From IMG/VR virus record IMGVR_UViG_2534682162_000012: a DNA stretch of 35,791 bases; one strand, 5' to 3'. Source of the DNA: a virus. Its lineage: Duplodnaviria; Heunggongvirae; Uroviricota; Caudoviricetes. A model generated the notes under the pieces. The model was not told the DNA's origin. It made no database searches and saw only the letters and a program-made list of their open reading frames with translations. Positions within the stretch are counted from its first letter, which is position 1. Each line of letters opens with the position of its first letter. A program made the translations under genes and the position numbers. Shown in pieces: positions 19,660 to 34,423 of the stretch.

Positions 19660-19986
19660 TTACTCCTTAGAGCCACCAAACTTATTACCGATTACTCTCA
19701 TTGCAGCCCCACGAATAGCATCGACCCCGATCAGCCCAACGCCGCCACCAATGGCAACAGAAAGAGATTTAGGCCATCCGACATACTCAAGAGCGGATGC
19801 AAAAGTCAGCGTCAGAGCACCACAGAGCAAAATCTCGAGCGTTTTTCGTTTCCAGCCACCACCACCGCCAAAATAGGCAATGCGCAAGCCAGCCATAACG
19901 ATCGACATAATCACTGCGCCCAGCGGTGTGTCTCCACGCCACCAGCTCTGGAACAACTCCAGCCAGGTATTTGGGTTATGAGGCAT
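19660..19986 (-). CDS. Holin (lambda S-like class I, three TM segments)
   Basis: 108-aa ORF with three hydrophobic segments and charged C-terminus, immediately upstream of the endolysin. Confidence 0.7.
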   Translation of the reverse strand: MPHNPNTWLELFQSWWRGDTPLGAVIMSIVMAGLRIAYFGGGGGWKRKTLEILLCGALTLTFASALEYVGWPKSLSVAIGGGVGLIGVDAIRGAAMRVIGNKFGGSKE

Positions 19987-25274: not shown

Positions 25275-26216
25275 TTACCCCCTGAATCCTGCCGGGATCT
25301 GGCTGTAGTCCACGTTGTCGTAACTGGATTTGAAGTACGGGTCTTCGCGTTTTTCGGTGTACGTGCTTACGGACGGCGATAAGCGCAGGGAAAGCTCATC
25401 CCATTTTTCCCGCAGCTTCGACGGGCTGAGCACGTTACGGCACCAGAACGGATCGCGGCTGACGCGGCTGTACATCTCGCAGATTTGTTTGTGAGTACGA
25501 CCATCCTGCACACACATCAGGCGAATTTCGTTTGCCCAGGCTGTCCAGTTCGGTTCTTTGGGACGAACCACCTCGCCGTCACATTCGGCAGCCAGCTCGT
25601 ACAGGGCGATGATTTTTTTCCAGAGCCACTGTGCGCAGGTCAAATCATCCTGCGTTCCCCACTGGCGCTTTTTAGGGCTGAATACAACCGCATCAGGATG
25701 GCGAGTTAAAAAATCCTGTTCATCCGTCTGCGTGTCCGGTTGCGAAGCGTCCGGACGAGAAGGTTTTTTATCTGACGGATCATGTTTTGATTTTACTGAC
25801 GGATCCCCGCCAGATTCTGACGGGTGAAAACCCGCTTTTTTGCCAGATTTCGACGCATCAAATTTTGACGGGTCAGATTTTGATGCGTCAGATTTTGACG
25901 GGTCAGAATCTGACAGTTGAGAAAATGCCGCTGCCTGAAGCTTCGCAACGTTAAGCTGATAAACATTCGACGCATTGCGGTTACCCTGGCGACGCGCCTT
26001 ACGCGTTAACCAGCCTTCTGCTTCCAGCCGTGCGATAGCCGTTCTGACGGTACTCATCCCCGCGCCAATCTGACGGGCAATGGTTTCAATTGATGGCCAG
26101 CACACACCTTCGTCATTACTGAAATCAGCCAGGCGGGCCATAATTGCCACGCTGGATAATTTCATGCCTGACGCTGCGCAACCATCCCATACATAGCCGG
26201 TTAATTTAGTGCTCAT
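25275..26216 (-). CDS. Replication initiator protein (lambda O-like; N-terminal HTH)
   Basis: 313-aa ORF with an N-terminal HTH-like domain, a central low-complexity SDxSKxD repeat region encoded by the iterons, and a C-terminal domain. Confidence 0.65.
   Translation of the reverse strand: MSTKLTGYVWDGCAASGMKLSSVAIMARLADFSNDEGVCWPSIETIARQIGAGMSTVRTAIARLEAEGWLTRKARRQGNRNASNVYQLNVAKLQAAAFSQLSDSDPSKSDASKSDPSKFDASKSGKKAGFHPSESGGDPSVKSKHDPSDKKPSRPDASQPDTQTDEQDFLTRHPDAVVFSPKKRQWGTQDDLTCAQWLWKKIIALYELAAECDGEVVRPKEPNWTAWANEIRLMCVQDGRTHKQICEMYSRVSRDPFWCRNVLSPSKLREKWDELSLRLSPSVSTYTEKREDPYFKSSYDNVDYSQIPAGFRG
25811..25918. repeat. Origin-like iteron array inside the initiator gene
   Basis: Five contiguous copies of a 15-bp unit (consensus about CAGATTTTGACGGGT) plus an outlying copy at 25811 and TGACGG half-sites from about 25770. 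Confidence 0.6.
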
Positions 26217-27518: not shown

Positions 27519-28205
27519 GTGAAAACACTGGCAGAACGATTAAAGATAGGTAGAGAGAAAGCTGGCATGAGCCAAGCTCAACTAGCTGAAAAAATTGGAC
27601 TTTCACAACAATCTGTAGCCAAAATAGAGAATGGCGAAACTCTACAACCGCGCAAAATTAAAGAAATTGCAAAAGTTTTAGGTGTATCACAAAAGTGGTT
27701 ACAACTTGGTATTGAAGACAACGCATCCATACCTGATCTTGTTGTAAAAGAAGCAGAAAGCACCGCATTAGACCCCGATATTTTCGTAAACATTCCTGTT
27801 TTAGATGTCGAGTTATCGGCAGGTAACGGATGTCTGGCTGAAATAGTTGAATCAGCTATTGACTGGTTTCCGTTAAGAAGAGCAGATTTGAGAAAATCTG
27901 GCGTATGTGCATCTAATGCCAAGATCGTAAAAATATGGGGGAACAGTTTATTACCGGTTCTCAATAATGGAGATCTTGTTGCCGTTGATATTTCTCAAAC
28001 CGTTCCTATTCGTGATGGCGATCTTTATGCCGTACGAGATGGTGTATTGCTAAGGGTTAAAATACTTATCAACTTACCTGACGGTGGCTTGATTCTTAGA
28101 AGCTTCAACAAAGATGAGTACCCAGATGAAATACTCACCTTTGAAGATAGACGAGCCAGAATTCATGTTATAGGTAGGGTATTCTGGTCATCGCGAACTT
28201 GGTAA
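27519..28205 (+). CDS. CI-like repressor (XRE HTH plus S24 LexA-like peptidase domain)
   Basis: GTG start with AAGAGAGGG RBS; N-terminal HTH (MSQAQLAEKIGLSQQSVAKIENGE) and C-terminal S24-like autocleavage domain with Ala-Gly-type cleavage region. Confidence 0.85.
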   Translation: MKTLAERLKIGREKAGMSQAQLAEKIGLSQQSVAKIENGETLQPRKIKEIAKVLGVSQKWLQLGIEDNASIPDLVVKEAESTALDPDIFVNIPVLDVELSAGNGCLAEIVESAIDWFPLRRADLRKSGVCASNAKIVKIWGNSLLPVLNNGDLVAVDISQTVPIRDGDLYAVRDGVLLRVKILINLPDGGLILRSFNKDEYPDEILTFEDRRARIHVIGRVFWSSRTW

Positions 28206-29078
28206 TGCATCGAAAAGCATTTCTTCAGAAATAATTTTAAGTTTTGCACCATTATCATCCCTATAAGATATAGCCTTTTCGATCTTCCTTCCGTGACTTG
28301 AGAATTTCCAATCACGGGAGGAAAGCGTCCCAATTACTAAAAAATCCAACTTTTGAGTAATTCCACTACTGATGTTCCCACCAGCATTTTTAATCAAATT
28401 TTCAACTACGGCTCTCTTTCCTGCAACAAAAGTGCCTGTAAGACAATAGGTTTTACCCTCTAACTCTATCGAAGCCCCTACATCAATAGGCAGCCTGGTC
28501 GCCAAACCATCCACCACCCCACTTTCCAAGTCACATCCTGTGAAGTCTACTAATGCCTTATGTAGAGTTAAACTCTCATCTTCAGTAATAACACCATCTT
28601 TAAGAATTTCCTTTACAAGTGCATAAAGTTTTTTTCCTGGGTAGTTGTTCTTCAAAGCTCCATTTTGCTCAAGCCACCAATTAAGATATCTTATTTCTTC
28701 TTGAGTTAAGTTCCGATCAGCAATTAATCCTTTACATAGTCCATTAAGTAAATGGACATCTACATCCTTGGAGTAAAAATCAATTTCAGGGATATCAAGA
28801 ATTTCCCTCTGTATTTGGAGAAGGCTATTTTTAAGGTCATCACGTTCTTCTGATGTGATTATTCCATCCGCAAGAATATCCGACACCCGTGCTGATAGAC
28901 TTTTTATAACTCCATTATTGATAATCTGCTTTGCTTCAAGTAACCATGTATCTAAGTAAAGAACCTCCTCTTCACGGACAACTCCATCTGCAATGATTCC
29001 ATCAATGATGCTAATCAAGTTAGCAAATAACTTGTCCCGGTTCTGTGTGTAATTAAAAGCGTAAAGCGCGTCTTCCAT
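28188..29078 (-). CDS. Tandem-repeat protein with C-terminal BRCT domain (296 aa), accessory
   Basis: Start at ATG 29078 (MEDALYAF...) with AAGGAGG RBS; four repeats of about 45 aa (DG(V/I)(V/I)..EE...L..WL); C-terminal GKTYCLTGTF...DFLVIG BRCT-like fold; AT-rich by eye; overlaps cI 3' end by 18 nt. Confidence 0.65.
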   Translation of the reverse strand: MEDALYAFNYTQNRDKLFANLISIIDGIIADGVVREEEVLYLDTWLLEAKQIINNGVIKSLSARVSDILADGIITSEERDDLKNSLLQIQREILDIPEIDFYSKDVDVHLLNGLCKGLIADRNLTQEEIRYLNWWLEQNGALKNNYPGKKLYALVKEILKDGVITEDESLTLHKALVDFTGCDLESGVVDGLATRLPIDVGASIELEGKTYCLTGTFVAGKRAVVENLIKNAGGNISSGITQKLDFLVIGTLSSRDWKFSSHGRKIEKAISYRDDNGAKLKIISEEMLFDALPSSR

Positions 29079-29135
29079 ACAACCTCCTTTTTTTGATAAT
29101 CCTTGCACTCCTTGGCTACTCGTTCAAACCACATA

Positions 29136-29200
29136 AAGTTGTTGACAACATTCAAAACCACAACTAAATTACAACTTAAAGGTGTTAAAACAACGAACAG
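29136..29200 (+). promoter_or_regulatory. OL-like operator with pL-like promoter
   Basis: Consensus -35 TTGACA (29142..29147), 17-nt spacer, -10 TAAATT (29165..29170); carries the same AAGTTGT and ACAACTT(A/T)(A/T)AGGTGTT motifs as the cro/cI intergenic region. Confidence 0.5.
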
Positions 29201-29280
29201 GCAGGACGCCCACGAAGTAGCCGCCGGTGGCGTATGAATGACCGGATGATTCGTTAAATACTATGTGTAAGAGAGCGCAA

Positions 29281-29768: not shown

Positions 29769-29931
29769 TTTTTTCAGGTAACTCGTCGGCATCGCAGAAA
29801 CAACAACGCTCGATCATGTTGAAAGCCGATTCGTAGAACTGTTTCTGCTGAGTGTCGCTGAGACAGGAAAAGAGCGACGTTACGATGATTTTATTAATTG
29901 CATTATCAAGTTCTTTTTCATCAAAAGTCAT
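29686..29931 (-). CDS. Hypothetical protein (81 aa), convergent, uncertain
   Basis: ATG with AAGGA RBS; overlaps the 3' end of 29493..29768 by 83 nt, so one of the two may be mis-called. Confidence 0.3.
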   Translation of the reverse strand: MTFDEKELDNAINKIIVTSLFSCLSDTQQKQFYESAFNMIERCCFCDADELPEKIRKQLADALRVRLSDQFSEMCSPNLDK

Positions 29932-30186
29932 TTGATTTTCCTTTTATGTATACGGGCTTAAAAGGATACCACCGAGCCTGAAGTGGTGAAAAGACAGGCA
30001 CATAACAGCTAAGTATTTTCAACCAAAGAGAATCCTTAGCGTTGTGGTGAATGCGGCTCAGCGCACGCGGGTTAAGGTTGAGGCTGACAGTCGACCTTCT
30101 GTGGATACCCACCCGTCTGGTGTGCAACCTTCGCCAGGCACCGGGAGGCACCCGGCACCACAACTTTATGCTGTGTGTAGTCCTGG

Positions 30187-30231
30187 CGGTACCAGTTTGT
30201 ACCCTTGCTTCCGGCTGGTACCGTCCTTTTT
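30187..30231 (+). terminator. Intrinsic terminator-like hairpin in the early-left operon
   Basis: Perfect 9-bp stem CGGTACCAG/CTGGTACCG (30187..30195, 30215..30223) with 19-nt loop, then TCC and TTTTT. Confidence 0.45.
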
Positions 30232-30368
30232 ACAAAACAGAGAAGAGCATCACCGGACGACGGGCTCATAACCCAATCCATCCGGGCGGCTGCTACCGCA
30301 GGTGTTCTTCTCTGTTTTGTGGAGAAACTAATCGGCCTTGCAGGGTCGATATGATGAGGAGCAGCAAA

Positions 30369-30731
30369 ATGGCTAGCGAACGCAGTACTGATGTGCAGGC
30401 ATTTATCGGGGAGCTGGACGGCGGCGTATTTGAAACCAAAATCGGCGCAGTTCTCAGTGAAGTCGCTTCCGGTGTGATGAACACGAAAACCAAAGGTAAG
30501 GTCTCACTCAACCTGGAAATCGAACCATTTGATGAGAACCGTGTGAAAATCAAACACAAACTCTCATATGTTCGCCCGACTAACCGCGGGAAAATTTCCG
30601 AAGAAGACACCACCGAAACGCCGATGTATGTCAATCGCGGTGGTCGCCTGACTATTCTGCAGGAAGACCAGGGACAATTACTGACTCTTGCCGGTGAACC
30701 TGACGGAAAACTCCGCGCAGCAGGTCATTAA
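30369..30731 (+). CDS. Hypothetical protein (120 aa, YfdP-like)
   Basis: Start at ATG 30369 with GAGGAG RBS; the longer upstream ORF runs through GC-rich non-coding-looking sequence. Confidence 0.5.
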   Translation: MASERSTDVQAFIGELDGGVFETKIGAVLSEVASGVMNTKTKGKVSLNLEIEPFDENRVKIKHKLSYVRPTNRGKISEEDTTETPMYVNRGGRLTILQEDQGQLLTLAGEPDGKLRAAGH

Positions 30732-34347: not shown

Positions 34348-34423
34348 TGGTGCCGATAATAGGAGTCGAACCTACGACCTTCGCATTACGAATGCGCTGC
34401 TCTACCAACTGAGCTATATCGGC
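34348..34423 (-). tRNA. thrW: tRNA-Thr (anticodon CGU)
   Basis: 76-nt minus-strand sequence GCCGATATAGCTCAGTTGGTAGAGCAGCGCATTCGTAATGCGAAGGTCGTAGGTTCGACTCCTATTATCGGCACCA with cloverleaf pairing, anticodon loop TT-CGT-AA and 3' CCA. Confidence 0.85.

What the first reader, a model, noticed from the sequence alone, without database searches (positions are those of the whole stretch)
30187..30320. Terminator-like hairpin followed by a 15-bp perfect inverted repeat in the early-left leader
A perfect 9-bp stem (CGGTACCAG/CTGGTACCG) followed by TTTTT lies downstream of the first two early-left genes. Immediately after it, ACAAAACAGAGAAGA (30232..30246) and its exact reverse complement TCTTCTCTGTTTTGT (30306..30320) flank 59 nt of GC-rich sequence ending about 50 nt before the next gene's RBS. 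A 15-bp perfect repeat is unlikely by chance. The pair could form a long RNA stem controlling downstream gene expression (antitermination or processing) or a DNA-level protein site. No Arg-rich N-like antiterminator is obvious in the operon, which makes an RNA-based mechanism worth testing.
Basis: seen in the sequence. Interest (0 to 1): 0.55.

Follow-up and report, generated by a model that had tools for sequence, protein, structure and literature searches.

The report
tRNA-like RNA after a DicF-type terminator
The hairpin is the terminator of a DicF/STnc100-type prophage small RNA, and the 15-bp inverted repeat closes a conserved, apparently undescribed tRNA-like RNA with a loop copying the initiator-tRNA anticodon arm; its function is untested.

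Summary
Both observations are real. The window is an SfV-like lambdoid prophage.

**Hairpin (30185-30225 plus U5).** It is the 3' stem-loop and terminator of a divergent STnc100-like RNA (30019-30234; Rfam 39.5 bits, gathering score 47). It is also homologous to the DicF terminator hairpin.

**Inverted repeat (30232-30320).** It is the longest in the window and closes a three-way-junction RNA.
- In 53 distinct relatives, 95.7% of base-pair cells pair and 11 pairs carry compensatory changes.
- G·U pairs and model scores place the RNA on the + strand.
- The inner arm carries CGGGCUCAUAACCC, identical to the E. coli tRNA-fMet anticodon arm.
- Relatives in Klebsiella-type phages are 70-71 nt units that end tRNA arrays downstream of Q. 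68 of 70 are followed by RCCA.
- Neither Rfam, ARAGORN nor my literature searches recognise the element.

**Most likely mechanism (inferred).** The 20-24 bp helix is an RNase III site that sets off a small tRNA-mimic RNA and the yfdP mRNA 5' end. This is by analogy with the RNase III-dependent 190-nt DicF species in the Qin prophage.

A separate conserved module just after P_L is the better candidate.

The parts
30019..30164 (+). Multi-helix domain of an STnc100-like prophage RNA. Its closing helix is GUUGUGGUG (30041-30049) with CACCACAAC (30156-30164).
   Evidence: Rfam STnc100 scores 39.5 bits, E = 4.6e-7, over 30019-30234, below the gathering score of 47. Helix I9 is reported and the fold. 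Window 30043-30070 is 26/28 identical to the dicF-dicB spacer of Qin. In relative L091 the same closing helix is the acceptor stem of a tRNA-model match.
30165..30231 (+). Single-stranded linker plus DicF-like 3' stem-loop and intrinsic terminator. The stem is 30185-30195 with 30215-30225 and the U-run is 30227-30231.
   Evidence: Sequence read. It matches the end of the STnc100 model. Local alignment to DicF scores 30, against 14.3 ± 2.2 (maximum 21) for shuffles. Rfam DicF gives 15.7 bits here and 29.1 bits in relative L091. A hairpin plus T-run is kept at this position with different stems in relatives.
30232..30320 (+). tRNA-like three-way-junction RNA (class A).
   Evidence: Fold. In 53 distinct relatives 95.7% of cells pair and 11 pairs have changes on both sides; 0 of 500 shuffles reach this, and slid controls give 42-49%. 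Model R1 scores 112.9 bits on + against 42.3 on -. No Rfam family matches.
30253..30285 (+). Long inner arm, an anticodon-arm mimic. The lower stem is CCGGA/UCCGG. An internal loop follows (GAC / AAUCC). The upper stem is GGG 30262-30264 with CCC 30272-30274. The 7-nt loop CUCAUAA lies at 30265-30271.
   Evidence: The 14-mer CGGGCUCAUAACCC is identical to the E. coli metZ tRNA-fMet anticodon arm. The lower stem covaries, GC:29 and AU:17 at columns 30-54. The arm is kept in classes A, B and C while the other helices change.
30286..30299 (+). Short second hairpin (GCGG-CUGCUA-CCGC), stacked beside the outer helix where a T arm would be.
   Evidence: Three of its 4 pairs show changes on both sides. 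Its length and sequence vary from 14 to about 40 nt among relatives.
30321..30348 (+). Conserved GGAGAAAC motif plus a small hairpin (CGGCC-UUGCAG-GGUCG, 30333-30348) in the leader just before the yfdP ribosome-binding site.
   Evidence: The GUGGAG(A/U)A..AAC motif and a hairpin with a UGCAG-type loop recur upstream of yfdP in many genera. This includes loci that lack the inverted repeat, such as Buttiauxella and Limnobaculum.
30369..30731 (+). yfdP (SfV orf32), the first gene downstream of the elements. Its Shine-Dalgarno sequence GAGGAG lies at 30356-30361.
   Evidence: ORF list, SfV annotation and RefSeq naming. Pfam finds no domain.

Best explanation
The finding covers two adjacent RNA modules in the untranslated leader of the early-left (P_L) operon of an SfV-like lambdoid prophage.

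**Module 1, the hairpin.** It is the 3' stem-loop and Rho-independent terminator of a DicF/STnc100-type prophage small RNA. This RNA has a folded, tRNA-derived-looking domain (30041-30164), then a linker and terminator hairpin (30165-30231).

**Module 2, the inverted repeat.** It is the closing helix of a conserved three-way-junction RNA that looks like a tRNA without a D arm.
- A long outer helix stands in place of the acceptor stem.
- A long arm ends in a 7-nt loop, CUCAUAA, on three G-C pairs. This copies the initiator-tRNA anticodon arm.
- A short variable hairpin stands in place of the T arm.

**Proposed mechanism (inferred, not shown).** Transcripts that read through the terminator fold this element. 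RNase III cuts its 20-24 bp helix. The cut separates the upstream sRNA part from the yfdP mRNA and releases a compact tRNA-mimic RNA.

In related phages the same core sits at the end of tRNA arrays with an RCCA tail. There it would be matured by the tRNA-processing enzymes instead.

The anticodon-arm mimic is the part held constant, so I take it to be the functional end, read by some factor that recognises a CAU anticodon loop. That factor is unknown.
For: **Shown: the hairpin belongs to an sRNA.**
- STnc100 model match ending exactly at the hairpin and U-run.
- Homology of the hairpin to DicF and a DicF model match in relative L091.
- The Qin dicBF leader holds the same modules, with 26/28 identity in the STnc100-like domain.

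**Shown: the repeat is a conserved RNA helix on the + strand.**
- 95.7% of cells paired and 11 pairs with double changes, with 0 of 500 shuffles reaching this.
- Slid controls give 42-49% pairing.
- G·U pairs tolerated only on the + strand, and 112.9 versus 42.3 bits for the two strands.

**Shown: distribution and context.**
- The same fold is predicted for classes A, B and C.
- The element lies upstream of yfdP in prophages of many genera found through the protein, not the RNA.
- The region is present in 2779 of 5426 complete E. coli genomes.
- The element also precedes rdgC or xisE, so it is not tied to one gene.

**Shown: tRNA-like character.**
- Class B copies are 70-71 nt and follow the preceding tRNA's CCA by a 6-nt spacer. 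68 of 70 distinct contexts end in RCCA, although the sequence beyond differs.
- 14-nt identity to the tRNA-fMet anticodon arm.

**Inferred: RNase III.**
- The helix meets the roughly 22-nt size used as the minimum RNase III target.
- In Qin, the 190-nt DicF species depends on RNase III for its 5' end. By size, that end (1553 - 190 + 1 = 1364) falls in the 3' arm (1356-1375) of a roughly 20-bp helix next to the STnc100-like domain.
Against: - No transcript-end or cleavage data exist for this element.
- The Qin helix is only an analogue. Model R1 gives 18.9 bits and plain alignment is not above shuffles. It also lies upstream of the sRNA, not downstream.
- RNase III alone does not explain why the anticodon-arm mimic is the most conserved part.
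- The mimic is lost or changed in some relatives that keep the long helix: e14, Scandinavium and Providencia.
- My first collection of relatives was seeded with the core sequence, so its invariance there is partly circular. The yfdP-anchored set corrects this only in part: CUCAU is kept in 15 of 16.
- The window copy has no CCA tail and its outer helix is far longer than an acceptor stem. It cannot be an ordinary RNase P or aminoacylation substrate.
- STnc100 and DicF model scores are below their gathering thresholds.
Confidence: 0.45

Rival explanations
1. RNA-based antitermination. The long stem modifies RNA polymerase or masks the terminator, so that transcription reaches yfdP.
For: No N-like protein is evident in the leader. 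The ORFs there are a ClpX-type zinc-finger protein and two proteins without domains. Terminators lie between P_L and yfdP in all relatives, so some read-through mechanism is needed.
Against: The element is transcribed after the terminator it would have to suppress. It lies about 1 kb from P_L. It also occurs at the end of tRNA arrays, with a CCA tail, where no such role applies. A different module directly after P_L (29189-29258) has the position, size and covariation expected of a put-like antiterminator.
Confidence: 0.07
2. A second, tandem intrinsic terminator. The branched hairpin is followed by the U-rich GUUUUGU, with the matching A-tract upstream, so it backs up the first terminator and may act in both directions.
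For: In the window, the base of the helix is ACAAAAC/GUUUUGU next to a stable stem. Tandem terminators are common after sRNA genes (my own knowledge).
Against: In most relatives the tract is GUUGUGU, with only isolated U residues. No U-run follows the helix; GGAG does. A 75-nt three-way junction is not a terminator hairpin. Class B and C relatives have GC-rich outer helices and no U-tract.
Confidence: 0.07
3. A decaying tRNA pseudogene or recombination scar. It would be a remnant of a phage tRNA array kept only as a stretch of shared sequence at mosaic joints, with no function of its own.
For: Homology blocks among phages begin at 30184 and end near 30345. The neighbouring STnc100-like domain also looks tRNA-derived. 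Cryptic prophages carry degraded copies.
Against: Compensatory changes in three helices are not expected of a decaying remnant. Three classes have unrelated outer helices around the same arm. The RCCA tail of class B is kept in 68 of 70 contexts. The element is present across many genera.
Confidence: 0.1
4. A cis-acting translational or stability element specific for yfdP, for example a 5' structure that protects the mRNA or controls access to its ribosome-binding site.
For: It lies 48 nt upstream of the yfdP start and is found there in many genera.
Against: The same element precedes rdgC, xisE (e14) or a holin, or ends a tRNA array. The GGAGAAAC motif and small hairpin nearer the start codon persist where the repeat is absent, so they are the better candidates for gene-specific control.
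Confidence: 0.12
5. A DNA-level site: a cruciform, a protein-binding palindrome, or a single-strand initiation signal.
For: It is a perfect 15-bp inverted repeat in DNA.
Against: G·U pairs (for example GU:16 at columns 20-105 and UG:47 at 23-102) would be A·C mismatches on the other strand. The model scores 113 against 42 bits for the two strands. The arm sequences are entirely replaced in classes B and C while pairing is kept. The 59-nt spacer is itself structured and conserved.
Confidence: 0.04

Closest known systems
[quoted passage not shown]
   Same: The operon position is the same: an untranslated leader downstream of the repressed early promoter. The window hairpin aligns with the DicF 3' stem-loop and terminator. 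Qin carries STnc100-like domains next to DicF, one of them 26/28 identical to the window over 28 nt. A roughly 20-bp helix flanks them, and the 190-nt DicF species needs RNase III while the 53-nt species needs RNase E.
   Different: The DicF covariance model scores only 15.7 bits here against a gathering score of 48. The 5' and loop sequences that DicF uses for pairing differ. In Qin the long helix lies upstream of the sRNA and has no clear anticodon-arm mimic. The two helices are not demonstrably homologous.
STnc100 (Rfam RF02076) and PasD prophage sRNAs
   Same: It has the same overall architecture: a closing helix, the CACCGGGAGGCACCCGG hairpin, and a terminal hairpin with a U-run. It is prophage-borne. 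A 2026 preprint describes STnc100 and PasD as related, prophage-encoded sRNAs.
   Different: The score is below threshold (39.5 against 47). Canonical STnc100 and PasD lie near Q, stx and the late region, not in the P_L leader. None of the papers read mentions the tRNA-like element next to it.
tRNA-like stable RNAs of phages: the species 1 and 2 RNAs at the end of the T4 tRNA cluster, and the P1/P7 C4 and P4 CI RNAs matured by RNase P (from my own knowledge, not checked here)
   Same: These are small phage RNAs with an acceptor-like helix formed by the 5' and 3' ends. Some sit at the end of a tRNA cluster and are matured by tRNA-processing enzymes. Class B relatives fit this picture.
   Different: The Rfam scan of the region, which includes the C4 family, found nothing relevant. 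No sequence in the phage is complementary to the loop on a transcribed strand, unlike C4 and CI, which act on nearby targets. The window copy has a 20-bp helix and no CCA.
Initiator tRNA (tRNA-fMet) anticodon stem-loop
   Same: 14 contiguous nucleotides are identical, including the 7-nt loop CUCAUAA and the three G-C pairs typical of initiator tRNA.
   Different: The two lower pairs of the anticodon stem are replaced by a conserved internal loop. There is no D arm and no T loop. tRNA models do not match. Positions 37 and 38 vary in relatives, as CUCAUUC and CUCAUUA.
RNase III processing hairpins in phage leaders, such as the lambda N leader and the T7 early sites (from my own knowledge)
   Same: It is a roughly two-turn RNA helix in an untranslated phage leader between functional units. 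About half of the relatives have a central mismatch that splits the helix into about 10 + 9 bp (columns 15-110).
   Different: Cleavage has not been shown. The helix caps a conserved branched structure rather than a simple loop.
HK022 put antiterminator RNA
   Same: It would be a cis-acting structured RNA in a lambdoid phage that seems to lack an N protein.
   Different: put lies directly after the promoter and acts on downstream terminators, whereas this element lies after the terminator. There is no sequence similarity to putL. The P_L-proximal module at 29189-29258 resembles put in position and size, but its similarity to put is also unproven.

Membership tests
STnc100 (Rfam RF02076) | Covariance-model score at or above the gathering score (47 bits) | tested here: not met
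   39.5 bits, E = 4.6e-7, full-length match to model positions 1-206 at 30019-30234. Relatives L004 and L062 also fall below the gathering score.
STnc100 (Rfam RF02076) | Architecture: closing helix, internal hairpins including CACCGGGAGGCACCCGG, and a terminal hairpin with a U-run | tested here: met
   The alignment shows these blocks matched at high posterior probability. The fold agrees.
STnc100 (Rfam RF02076) | Expressed, Hfq-associated, trans-acting sRNA | not testable with these tools
   No expression data for this locus are available here.
DicF (Rfam RF00039) | Covariance-model score at or above the gathering score (48 bits) | tested here: not met
   15.7 bits, E = 1.3, at 30172-30226. 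Relative L091 gives 29.1 bits, E = 4.4e-4.
DicF (Rfam RF00039) | Sequence homology of the 3' stem-loop and terminator, and location in an early-left-type prophage operon next to an STnc100-like domain | tested here: met
   Alignment score of 30 against a shuffled mean of 14.3, sd 2.2, maximum 21. The Qin layout is read.
DicF (Rfam RF00039) | Pairing regions for ftsZ and other DicF targets | not tested
   The 5' part and the loop differ from DicF by eye. No target prediction was run.
Rho-independent terminator | G+C-rich stem directly followed by a U-run | tested here: met
   11-bp stem at 30185-30195 with 30215-30225, then UUUUU at 30227-30231.
Rho-independent terminator | Short loop (3-8 nt in the scan used) | tested here: not met
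   The loop is 19 nt, so the site was not listed by the scan. The DicF and STnc100 terminal hairpins also have larger loops.
Rho-independent terminator | Termination activity | not testable with these tools
   A hairpin plus T-run is kept at this position with different stems in relatives, which is indirect support.
tRNA | Recognised by tRNA models (Rfam RF00005, ARAGORN) | tested here: not met
   Nothing is found at 30232-30320. Class B relatives are also not recognised.
tRNA | 7-nt anticodon loop with U33 on a stem | tested here: met
   The loop is CUCAUAA on GGG/CCC, with 14 nt identical to metZ tRNA-fMet.
tRNA | 7-bp acceptor stem with discriminator base and CCA | tested here: not met
   The window copy has a 20-bp helix followed by GGAG. 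Class B relatives have 6 bp plus RCCA in 68 of 70 contexts.
tRNA | D arm and T loop | tested here: not met
   Only one nucleotide links the outer helix to the long arm. The second hairpin has a variable 4-9 nt loop with no T-loop consensus.
RNase III processing site | Double-stranded RNA of about two helical turns (at least about 20-22 bp) | tested here: met
   20 pairs, extendable to 24. The size criterion is quoted.
RNase III processing site | RNase III-dependent cleavage | not testable with these tools
   There is only an analogy: the 190-nt DicF species needs RNase III, and by size its 5' end falls in a roughly 20-bp helix of the Qin leader.
HK022 put-type antiterminator | Roughly 70-nt two-stem RNA just downstream of the early promoter, acting on downstream terminators | tested here: not met
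   The element lies about 1.05 kb downstream of the P_L-like promoter (29142-29170) and after the terminator.
Lambda-type nut site with N protein | boxA and boxB RNA plus an arginine-rich N protein in the operon | tested here: inconclusive
   No N-like ORF is seen among the leader ORFs. The small hairpin at 30333-30348 has a conserved UGCAG-type loop, but no partner protein is known.
C4 / CI antisense RNAs (Rfam RF01695) | Model match, and loop complementarity to a target in the same phage | tested here: not met
   No Rfam match. The only near-complement in the window (19971-19984) lies opposite the transcribed strand of the gene there.

The most novel reading that the evidence does not exclude
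Lambdoid phages of Enterobacterales carry a so far undescribed family of D-arm-less tRNA mimics that display an initiator-type CAU anticodon arm. Copies in the late-operon leader would be matured like tRNAs, using their RCCA tail. Copies in the early-left leader would be cut out of a long helix by RNase III. The released RNA would act in trans as a decoy or ligand for something that reads that anticodon loop. Candidates are an anticodon-loop nuclease of the VapC type that cuts tRNA-fMet, methionyl-tRNA synthetase, lysidine synthetase, or the ribosomal P site. Together with the tRNA-derived STnc100/DicF-type domains beside it, this would make these phage leaders arrays of repurposed tRNA genes.
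Probability: 0.15. Interest if true: 0.8.

Novelty: new variant of a known kind. Interest (0 to 1): 0.6.

Why it matters
**Scale.** The region is present in about half of all complete E. coli genomes and in prophages of many other enteric genera. It is either unannotated or covered by doubtful ORFs, such as ymfH in K-12 e14 and older upstream-extended versions of yfdP.

**What it would add.**
- A new structured RNA family for Rfam.
- Removal of spurious protein annotations.
- A view of these phage leaders as chains of RNA modules (an sRNA, its terminator, a processing helix and a tRNA mimic) rather than empty spacers.

**If the mimic has a partner.** It would be a new way for phages to interact with the host translation or tRNA-targeting machinery.

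**The DicF link.** It gives a concrete, testable model: RNase III and RNase E processing of read-through transcripts.

Tried and rejected
1. **Antisense target in cis.** I searched the window for the complement of the conserved loop with up to 3 mismatches. The only near match (19971-19984) is on the non-transcribed strand of a minus-strand gene, so I treat it as chance.
2. **Kissing or pairing with neighbouring RNAs.** I checked this by eye against the STnc100-like domain and the loop of the P_L-proximal module. I saw no consistent or covarying complementarity.
3. **put homology.** Neither the element nor the P_L-proximal module shows sequence similarity to HK022 putL. King et al. 2011 could not be read, and the put alignment in Hwang et al. 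is only an image.
4. **Known RNA families.** Permissive Rfam scans gave only noise for the element, such as hairpin ribozyme and microRNA models. The CUGAUGA string in class B is not part of a hammerhead core.
5. **Coding potential.** The 49-aa ORF at 30205-30354 and the 226-aa upstream extension of yfdP overlap the element. Relatives differ in length by numbers that are not multiples of three (97, 98, 99, 100, 101, 120, 124 nt), and substitutions follow base pairing.
6. **Published RNase III data.**
   - K-12 CPS-53 has lost the element, so the 'yfdP' entry in Gordon et al. is irrelevant.
   - The other data set has no supplements held.
7. **Homology between the Qin long helix and class A.** It is not established, so I use the Qin helix only as an analogy.
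8. **boxA-like UGCUCUU in the 3' arm.** It is base-paired and is not conserved in the window copy (GUUCUU), so I dropped it.
Full report
**Setting**

The window is an SfV-like lambdoid prophage.
- Region 29900-30420 is 99.8% identical to Shigella phage SfV.
- A tRNA-Thr(CGU) gene lies at 34348-34423 next to int and xis.

On the + strand the order is as follows:
- a LexA-type repressor (27519-28205);
- a minus-strand BRCT-domain gene;
- a strong sigma-70-like promoter (TTGACA-17-TAAATT, 29142-29170) that I take as P_L;
- two small ORFs, one of them a ClpX-type zinc finger;
- a minus-strand 81-aa ORF;
- about 440 nt without convincing coding sequence;
- yfdP (30369), yfdQ (DUF2303) and yfdR.

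The finding lies in that non-coding stretch.

**Checking the observation**

- The 9-bp stem extends to 11 bp (30185-30195 with 30215-30225) and is followed by UUUUU.
- The 15-bp repeat is perfect. As RNA it extends to 20 pairs, and to 24 with wobble pairs between the terminator's U-run and GGAG.
- It is the longest inverted repeat within 150 nt in the whole window.
- The stretch folds far better than shuffled sequence, z = -6.7.

**The hairpin belongs to a small RNA**

- A permissive Rfam scan places a full-length STnc100 match at 30019-30234, ending exactly at the hairpin and U-run. The score is 39.5 bits, E = 4.6e-7, below the curated threshold of 47.
- The same scan gives a weak DicF match on the hairpin (15.7 bits). 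In a relative from a viral contig, the equivalent hairpin scores 29.1 bits.
- A direct alignment of the window hairpin with DicF from the Qin prophage scores 30. Shuffled sequence gives 14.3 ± 2.2, maximum 21.

The Qin dicBF leader turns out to be built from the same pieces:
- a long helix;
- an STnc100-like folded domain;
- DicF with its terminator;
- a second STnc100-like domain, 26/28 identical to window 30043-30070;
- then dicB.

It is not a formal member of either Rfam family, because both scores are below threshold.

In relatives the hairpin's sequence varies widely, but a hairpin plus T-run is almost always present at this position. That argues for a working terminator.

**The inverted repeat closes a conserved branched RNA**

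BLAST against phage genomes showed two things. First, many phages share only the stretch from 30184 onward, or only up to about 30345. Second, some Klebsiella phages match just the inner 50 nt, right after annotated tRNA genes.

I collected relatives in two ways:
- with an exact-pattern scan of viral contigs;
- independently of the RNA sequence, by finding yfdP homologues in one genome per species and looking upstream.

In 53 distinct early-left ('class A') sequences (alignment A1), the proposed structure behaves as follows:
- It is paired in 95.7% of cells, against 42-49% when partners are slid by 1-3 columns.
- 11 of 34 pairs have changes on both sides, and no shuffle out of 500 reaches this.
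- Examples in the outer helix are CG:27/AU:20, GC:37/CG:16, AU:46/GC:6 and AU:41/GC:10. The inner arm shows GC:29/AU:17.
- Several pairs are G·U in many sequences, which would be A·C mismatches on the other strand.

A covariance model built from this alignment scores about 110 bits on the + strand and about 42 on the - strand. The element is therefore an RNA read from the + strand. It is not a DNA palindrome and not a chance repeat.

**Shape**

The outer helix encloses two hairpins.
- **First hairpin.** It is long: a 5-7 bp lower stem, a conserved internal loop (GAC opposite AAUCC), three G-C pairs, and the 7-nt loop CUCAUAA. The 14 nucleotides CGGGCUCAUAACCC are identical to the anticodon arm of E. 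coli initiator tRNA.
- **Second hairpin.** It is short and variable in length and sequence, and its stem covaries.
- **Overall.** One nucleotide links the outer helix to the long arm, and the second hairpin abuts the long arm. This is the layout of a tRNA whose D arm is missing: outer helix for the acceptor stem, long arm for the stacked D and anticodon stems, short hairpin for the T arm.

**Three classes**

- **Class A** is the window's type. It lies in the early-left leader just after a terminator, with a 20-bp A/C-rich versus G/U-rich outer helix.
  - It precedes yfdP in Escherichia, Shigella, Salmonella (ST64B), Citrobacter, Klebsiella, Kosakonia, Leclercia, Phytobacter, Mangrovibacter, Enterobacter, Atlantibacter and others.
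  - Elsewhere it precedes rdgC, or xisE in K-12 e14, where it is hidden under the annotated ORF ymfH.
  - The region is found in 2779 of 5426 complete E. coli genomes.
- **Class B** lies downstream of the Q antiterminator in Klebsiella-type lambdoid phages, as the last unit of a tRNA array.
  - It starts 6 nt after the CCA of the preceding tRNA and is 70-71 nt long.
  - It has a 6-bp GGCCUG/CAGGCC outer helix.
  - In 68 of 70 distinct contexts it is followed by GCCA or ACCA, although at least ten different sequences follow that.
  - This is what a gene matured by the tRNA-processing machinery looks like. Even so, ARAGORN and the Rfam tRNA model do not recognise it, even at E up to 10.
- **Class C** has a GGCCC/GGGCC helix and lies upstream of a holin-like gene. 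Its long-arm stem shows further compensatory changes, CUGUCU/GGGCAG against CUACCU/GGGUAG.

STnc100-like domains also occur a short distance downstream of class B copies, so the two RNA modules travel together in both operons.

**What is conserved**

The outer helix and second hairpin change freely as long as they pair. The long arm's top is nearly constant.

Part of that constancy is built into my pattern searches. In the yfdP-anchored set, which is free of that bias, CUCAU is kept in 15 of 16 copies. Positions 37 and 38 vary (CUCAUUC in Mangrovibacter and others, CUCAUUA in ST64B), and the G-C stem shrinks to two pairs in some.

The mimic is lost in e14 (UUAAUAA loop), in Scandinavium, and in Providencia. 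Providencia keeps only a long plain hairpin in the same place. The first two are from cryptic or divergent prophages.

So there appear to be two constrained features: the long helix, and a CAU anticodon-like loop.

**Mechanism**

The following is inferred, not shown.

The helix is long enough for RNase III. A minimum of about 22 nt of duplex is the criterion quoted. It also sits between two functional units of an untranslated phage leader.

The nearest experimental system is Qin:
- DicF is made from the polycistronic dicBF transcript.
- The 53-nt form needs RNase E.
- The 190-nt form disappears without RNase III, and primer extension puts its 5' end at an RNase III cut.
- Counting 190 nt back from the DicF 3' end (L262 position 1553) gives about 1364. 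That lies inside the 3' arm (1356-1375) of a roughly 20-bp helix directly upstream of the STnc100-like domain.

I therefore propose that read-through transcripts in the window are cut in the 30232-30320 helix.
- This would define a longer form of the upstream sRNA.
- It would create the 5' end of the yfdP mRNA near the conserved GUGGAGAAAC.
- It would free the branched core as a small RNA.
- In class B the same core would be released by RNase P and 3' trimming instead.

The weak points are clear:
- The Qin helix is upstream, not downstream, of the sRNA.
- Its match to my model is only 18.9 bits, and ordinary alignment is not significant.
- No cleavage data exist for class A.

Processing alone also does not explain the conserved anticodon-arm mimic. 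I take the mimic to be the part that some CAU-reading factor recognises, and I could not identify that factor. No complementary target exists on a transcribed strand in the phage.

**The antitermination idea**

The element is a poor candidate, because it follows the terminator and lies about 1 kb from the promoter. The question behind the idea is still sound. All these phages have one or more terminators between P_L and the first early-left gene, and no N-like protein is evident.

While collecting relatives I found a 66-nt module that always starts about 10-15 nt after the transcription start of very different P_L promoters and operators (window 29189-29258).
- It has sharp homology boundaries on both sides.
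- It has a hairpin with strong covariation: GC:19/CG:16/UA:4, GC:29/CG:8/AU:2 and UA:18/GC:12/AU:8.
- It has a closing stem that switches between A-U and G-C.
- It occurs in phages of Escherichia, Salmonella, Yersinia, Pectobacterium, Pantoea, Providencia and Aeromonas.
- It has no Rfam match and no sequence similarity to HK022 putL.
- Its position and size are those of putL.

This module is the better place to test RNA-based antitermination.

**A wider pattern**

In two relatives, the position of the STnc100-like domain is occupied by a sequence that matches the tRNA model at 40-44 bits. It has intact D and T arms and a 68-nt insert in the anticodon arm. Its acceptor stem UGUGGUG/CACCACA is the same helix that closes the STnc100-like domain in the window. 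T-arm-like hairpins (GGUUCGAUUCC) also litter the leaders of phiNP-type phages. These leaders may therefore have evolved from tRNA arrays.

**Comparison with what is known, and novelty**

- The hairpin and its RNA are new, sub-threshold relatives of known sRNA families (DicF, STnc100/PasD).
- The tRNA-like element matches no Rfam 15 family. It is not annotated in any phage or RefSeq record I looked at. It did not turn up in my literature searches.
- The 2026 preprint on Pas sRNAs, which surveys structured RNAs around STnc100, does not mention yfdP, DicF or RNase III; its single occurrence of 'tRNA-like' was not among the passages shown.
- tRNA-like phage RNAs and RNase III hairpins are known kinds of element. 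A D-arm-less mimic with an initiator-type anticodon arm, in two genomic guises, is a new variant of them.

**Scores**

The structural conclusions are firm. The mechanism is a reasoned guess, at 0.45 for the combined statement. I score interest at 0.6. The family is widespread, unannotated and structurally distinctive, and it can be tested directly. Its function is unknown, and part of the finding (the terminator) is ordinary.

Noticed in passing
window 29189-29258 (+), just downstream of the promoter at 29142-29170: A 66-nt module starts about 10-15 nt after the start site of many unrelated P_L promoters in phages of at least nine genera. Its hairpin covaries strongly and its closing stem switches between A-U and G-C. 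It has no Rfam match and no sequence similarity to HK022 putL. It is a candidate put-like cis antiterminator for operons that contain terminators but no N gene.
   Followed up: partly
L091 1800-1925 and L109 1077-1203; window 30041-30164: In two relatives the place of the STnc100-like domain is taken by a tRNA-model match (40-44 bits). It has intact D and T arms and a 68-nt insert in the anticodon arm. Its acceptor stem is the same GUUGUGGUG/CACCACAAC helix that closes the STnc100-like domain here. STnc100-type RNAs may therefore be tRNA-derived.
   Followed up: partly
window 30321-30348: A GUGGAG(A/U)A..AAC motif and a small hairpin with a UGCAG-type loop lie between the repeat and the yfdP ribosome-binding site. 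They are conserved upstream of yfdP even in genera that lack the inverted repeat. Their function is unknown; a protein-binding or translational operator site is possible.
   Followed up: no
L128 2545-2856 (E. coli K-12 e14 prophage, gene ymfH): The annotated ORF ymfH lies entirely over the STnc100-like RNA, the DicF-like terminator and a decayed copy of the tRNA-like element. It is probably not a real protein gene.
   Followed up: partly
L262 1286-1720 (Qin prophage, ydfC-dicF-dicB): DicF is flanked on both sides by STnc100-like folded domains, and a roughly 20-bp helix lies just upstream. By size, the RNase III-made 5' end of the 190-nt DicF species falls in the 3' arm of that helix. The arm overlaps the 5' strand of the next domain's closing helix, so the two structures may be alternatives.
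   Followed up: partly
window 25811-25912: A cluster of inverted and direct GACGGGTCAGATTTTGA-type repeats looks like replication-origin iterons. In K-12 CPS-53 the same repeats are fused directly upstream of yfdP, which shows a deletion that removed the whole leader there.
   Followed up: no
window 28188-29108 (-): A 306-aa protein with a C-terminal BRCT domain is encoded on the opposite strand between the repressor gene and P_L. In SfV itself the cI gene occupies this position, so this window carries a different immunity region and an inserted accessory gene.
   Followed up: no
window 19971-19984 (+): TTGGGTTATGAGGC is a one-mismatch complement of the conserved loop. It lies on the strand opposite to the gene that starts at 19986, so I judged it to be coincidence.
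   Followed up: yes
L023 3747-3825: An isrJ-family match (59.8 bits, above the gathering score) lies just upstream of the tRNA array that ends with a class B element in a Klebsiella-type phage contig. It is one more small RNA in the same late leader.
   Followed up: no
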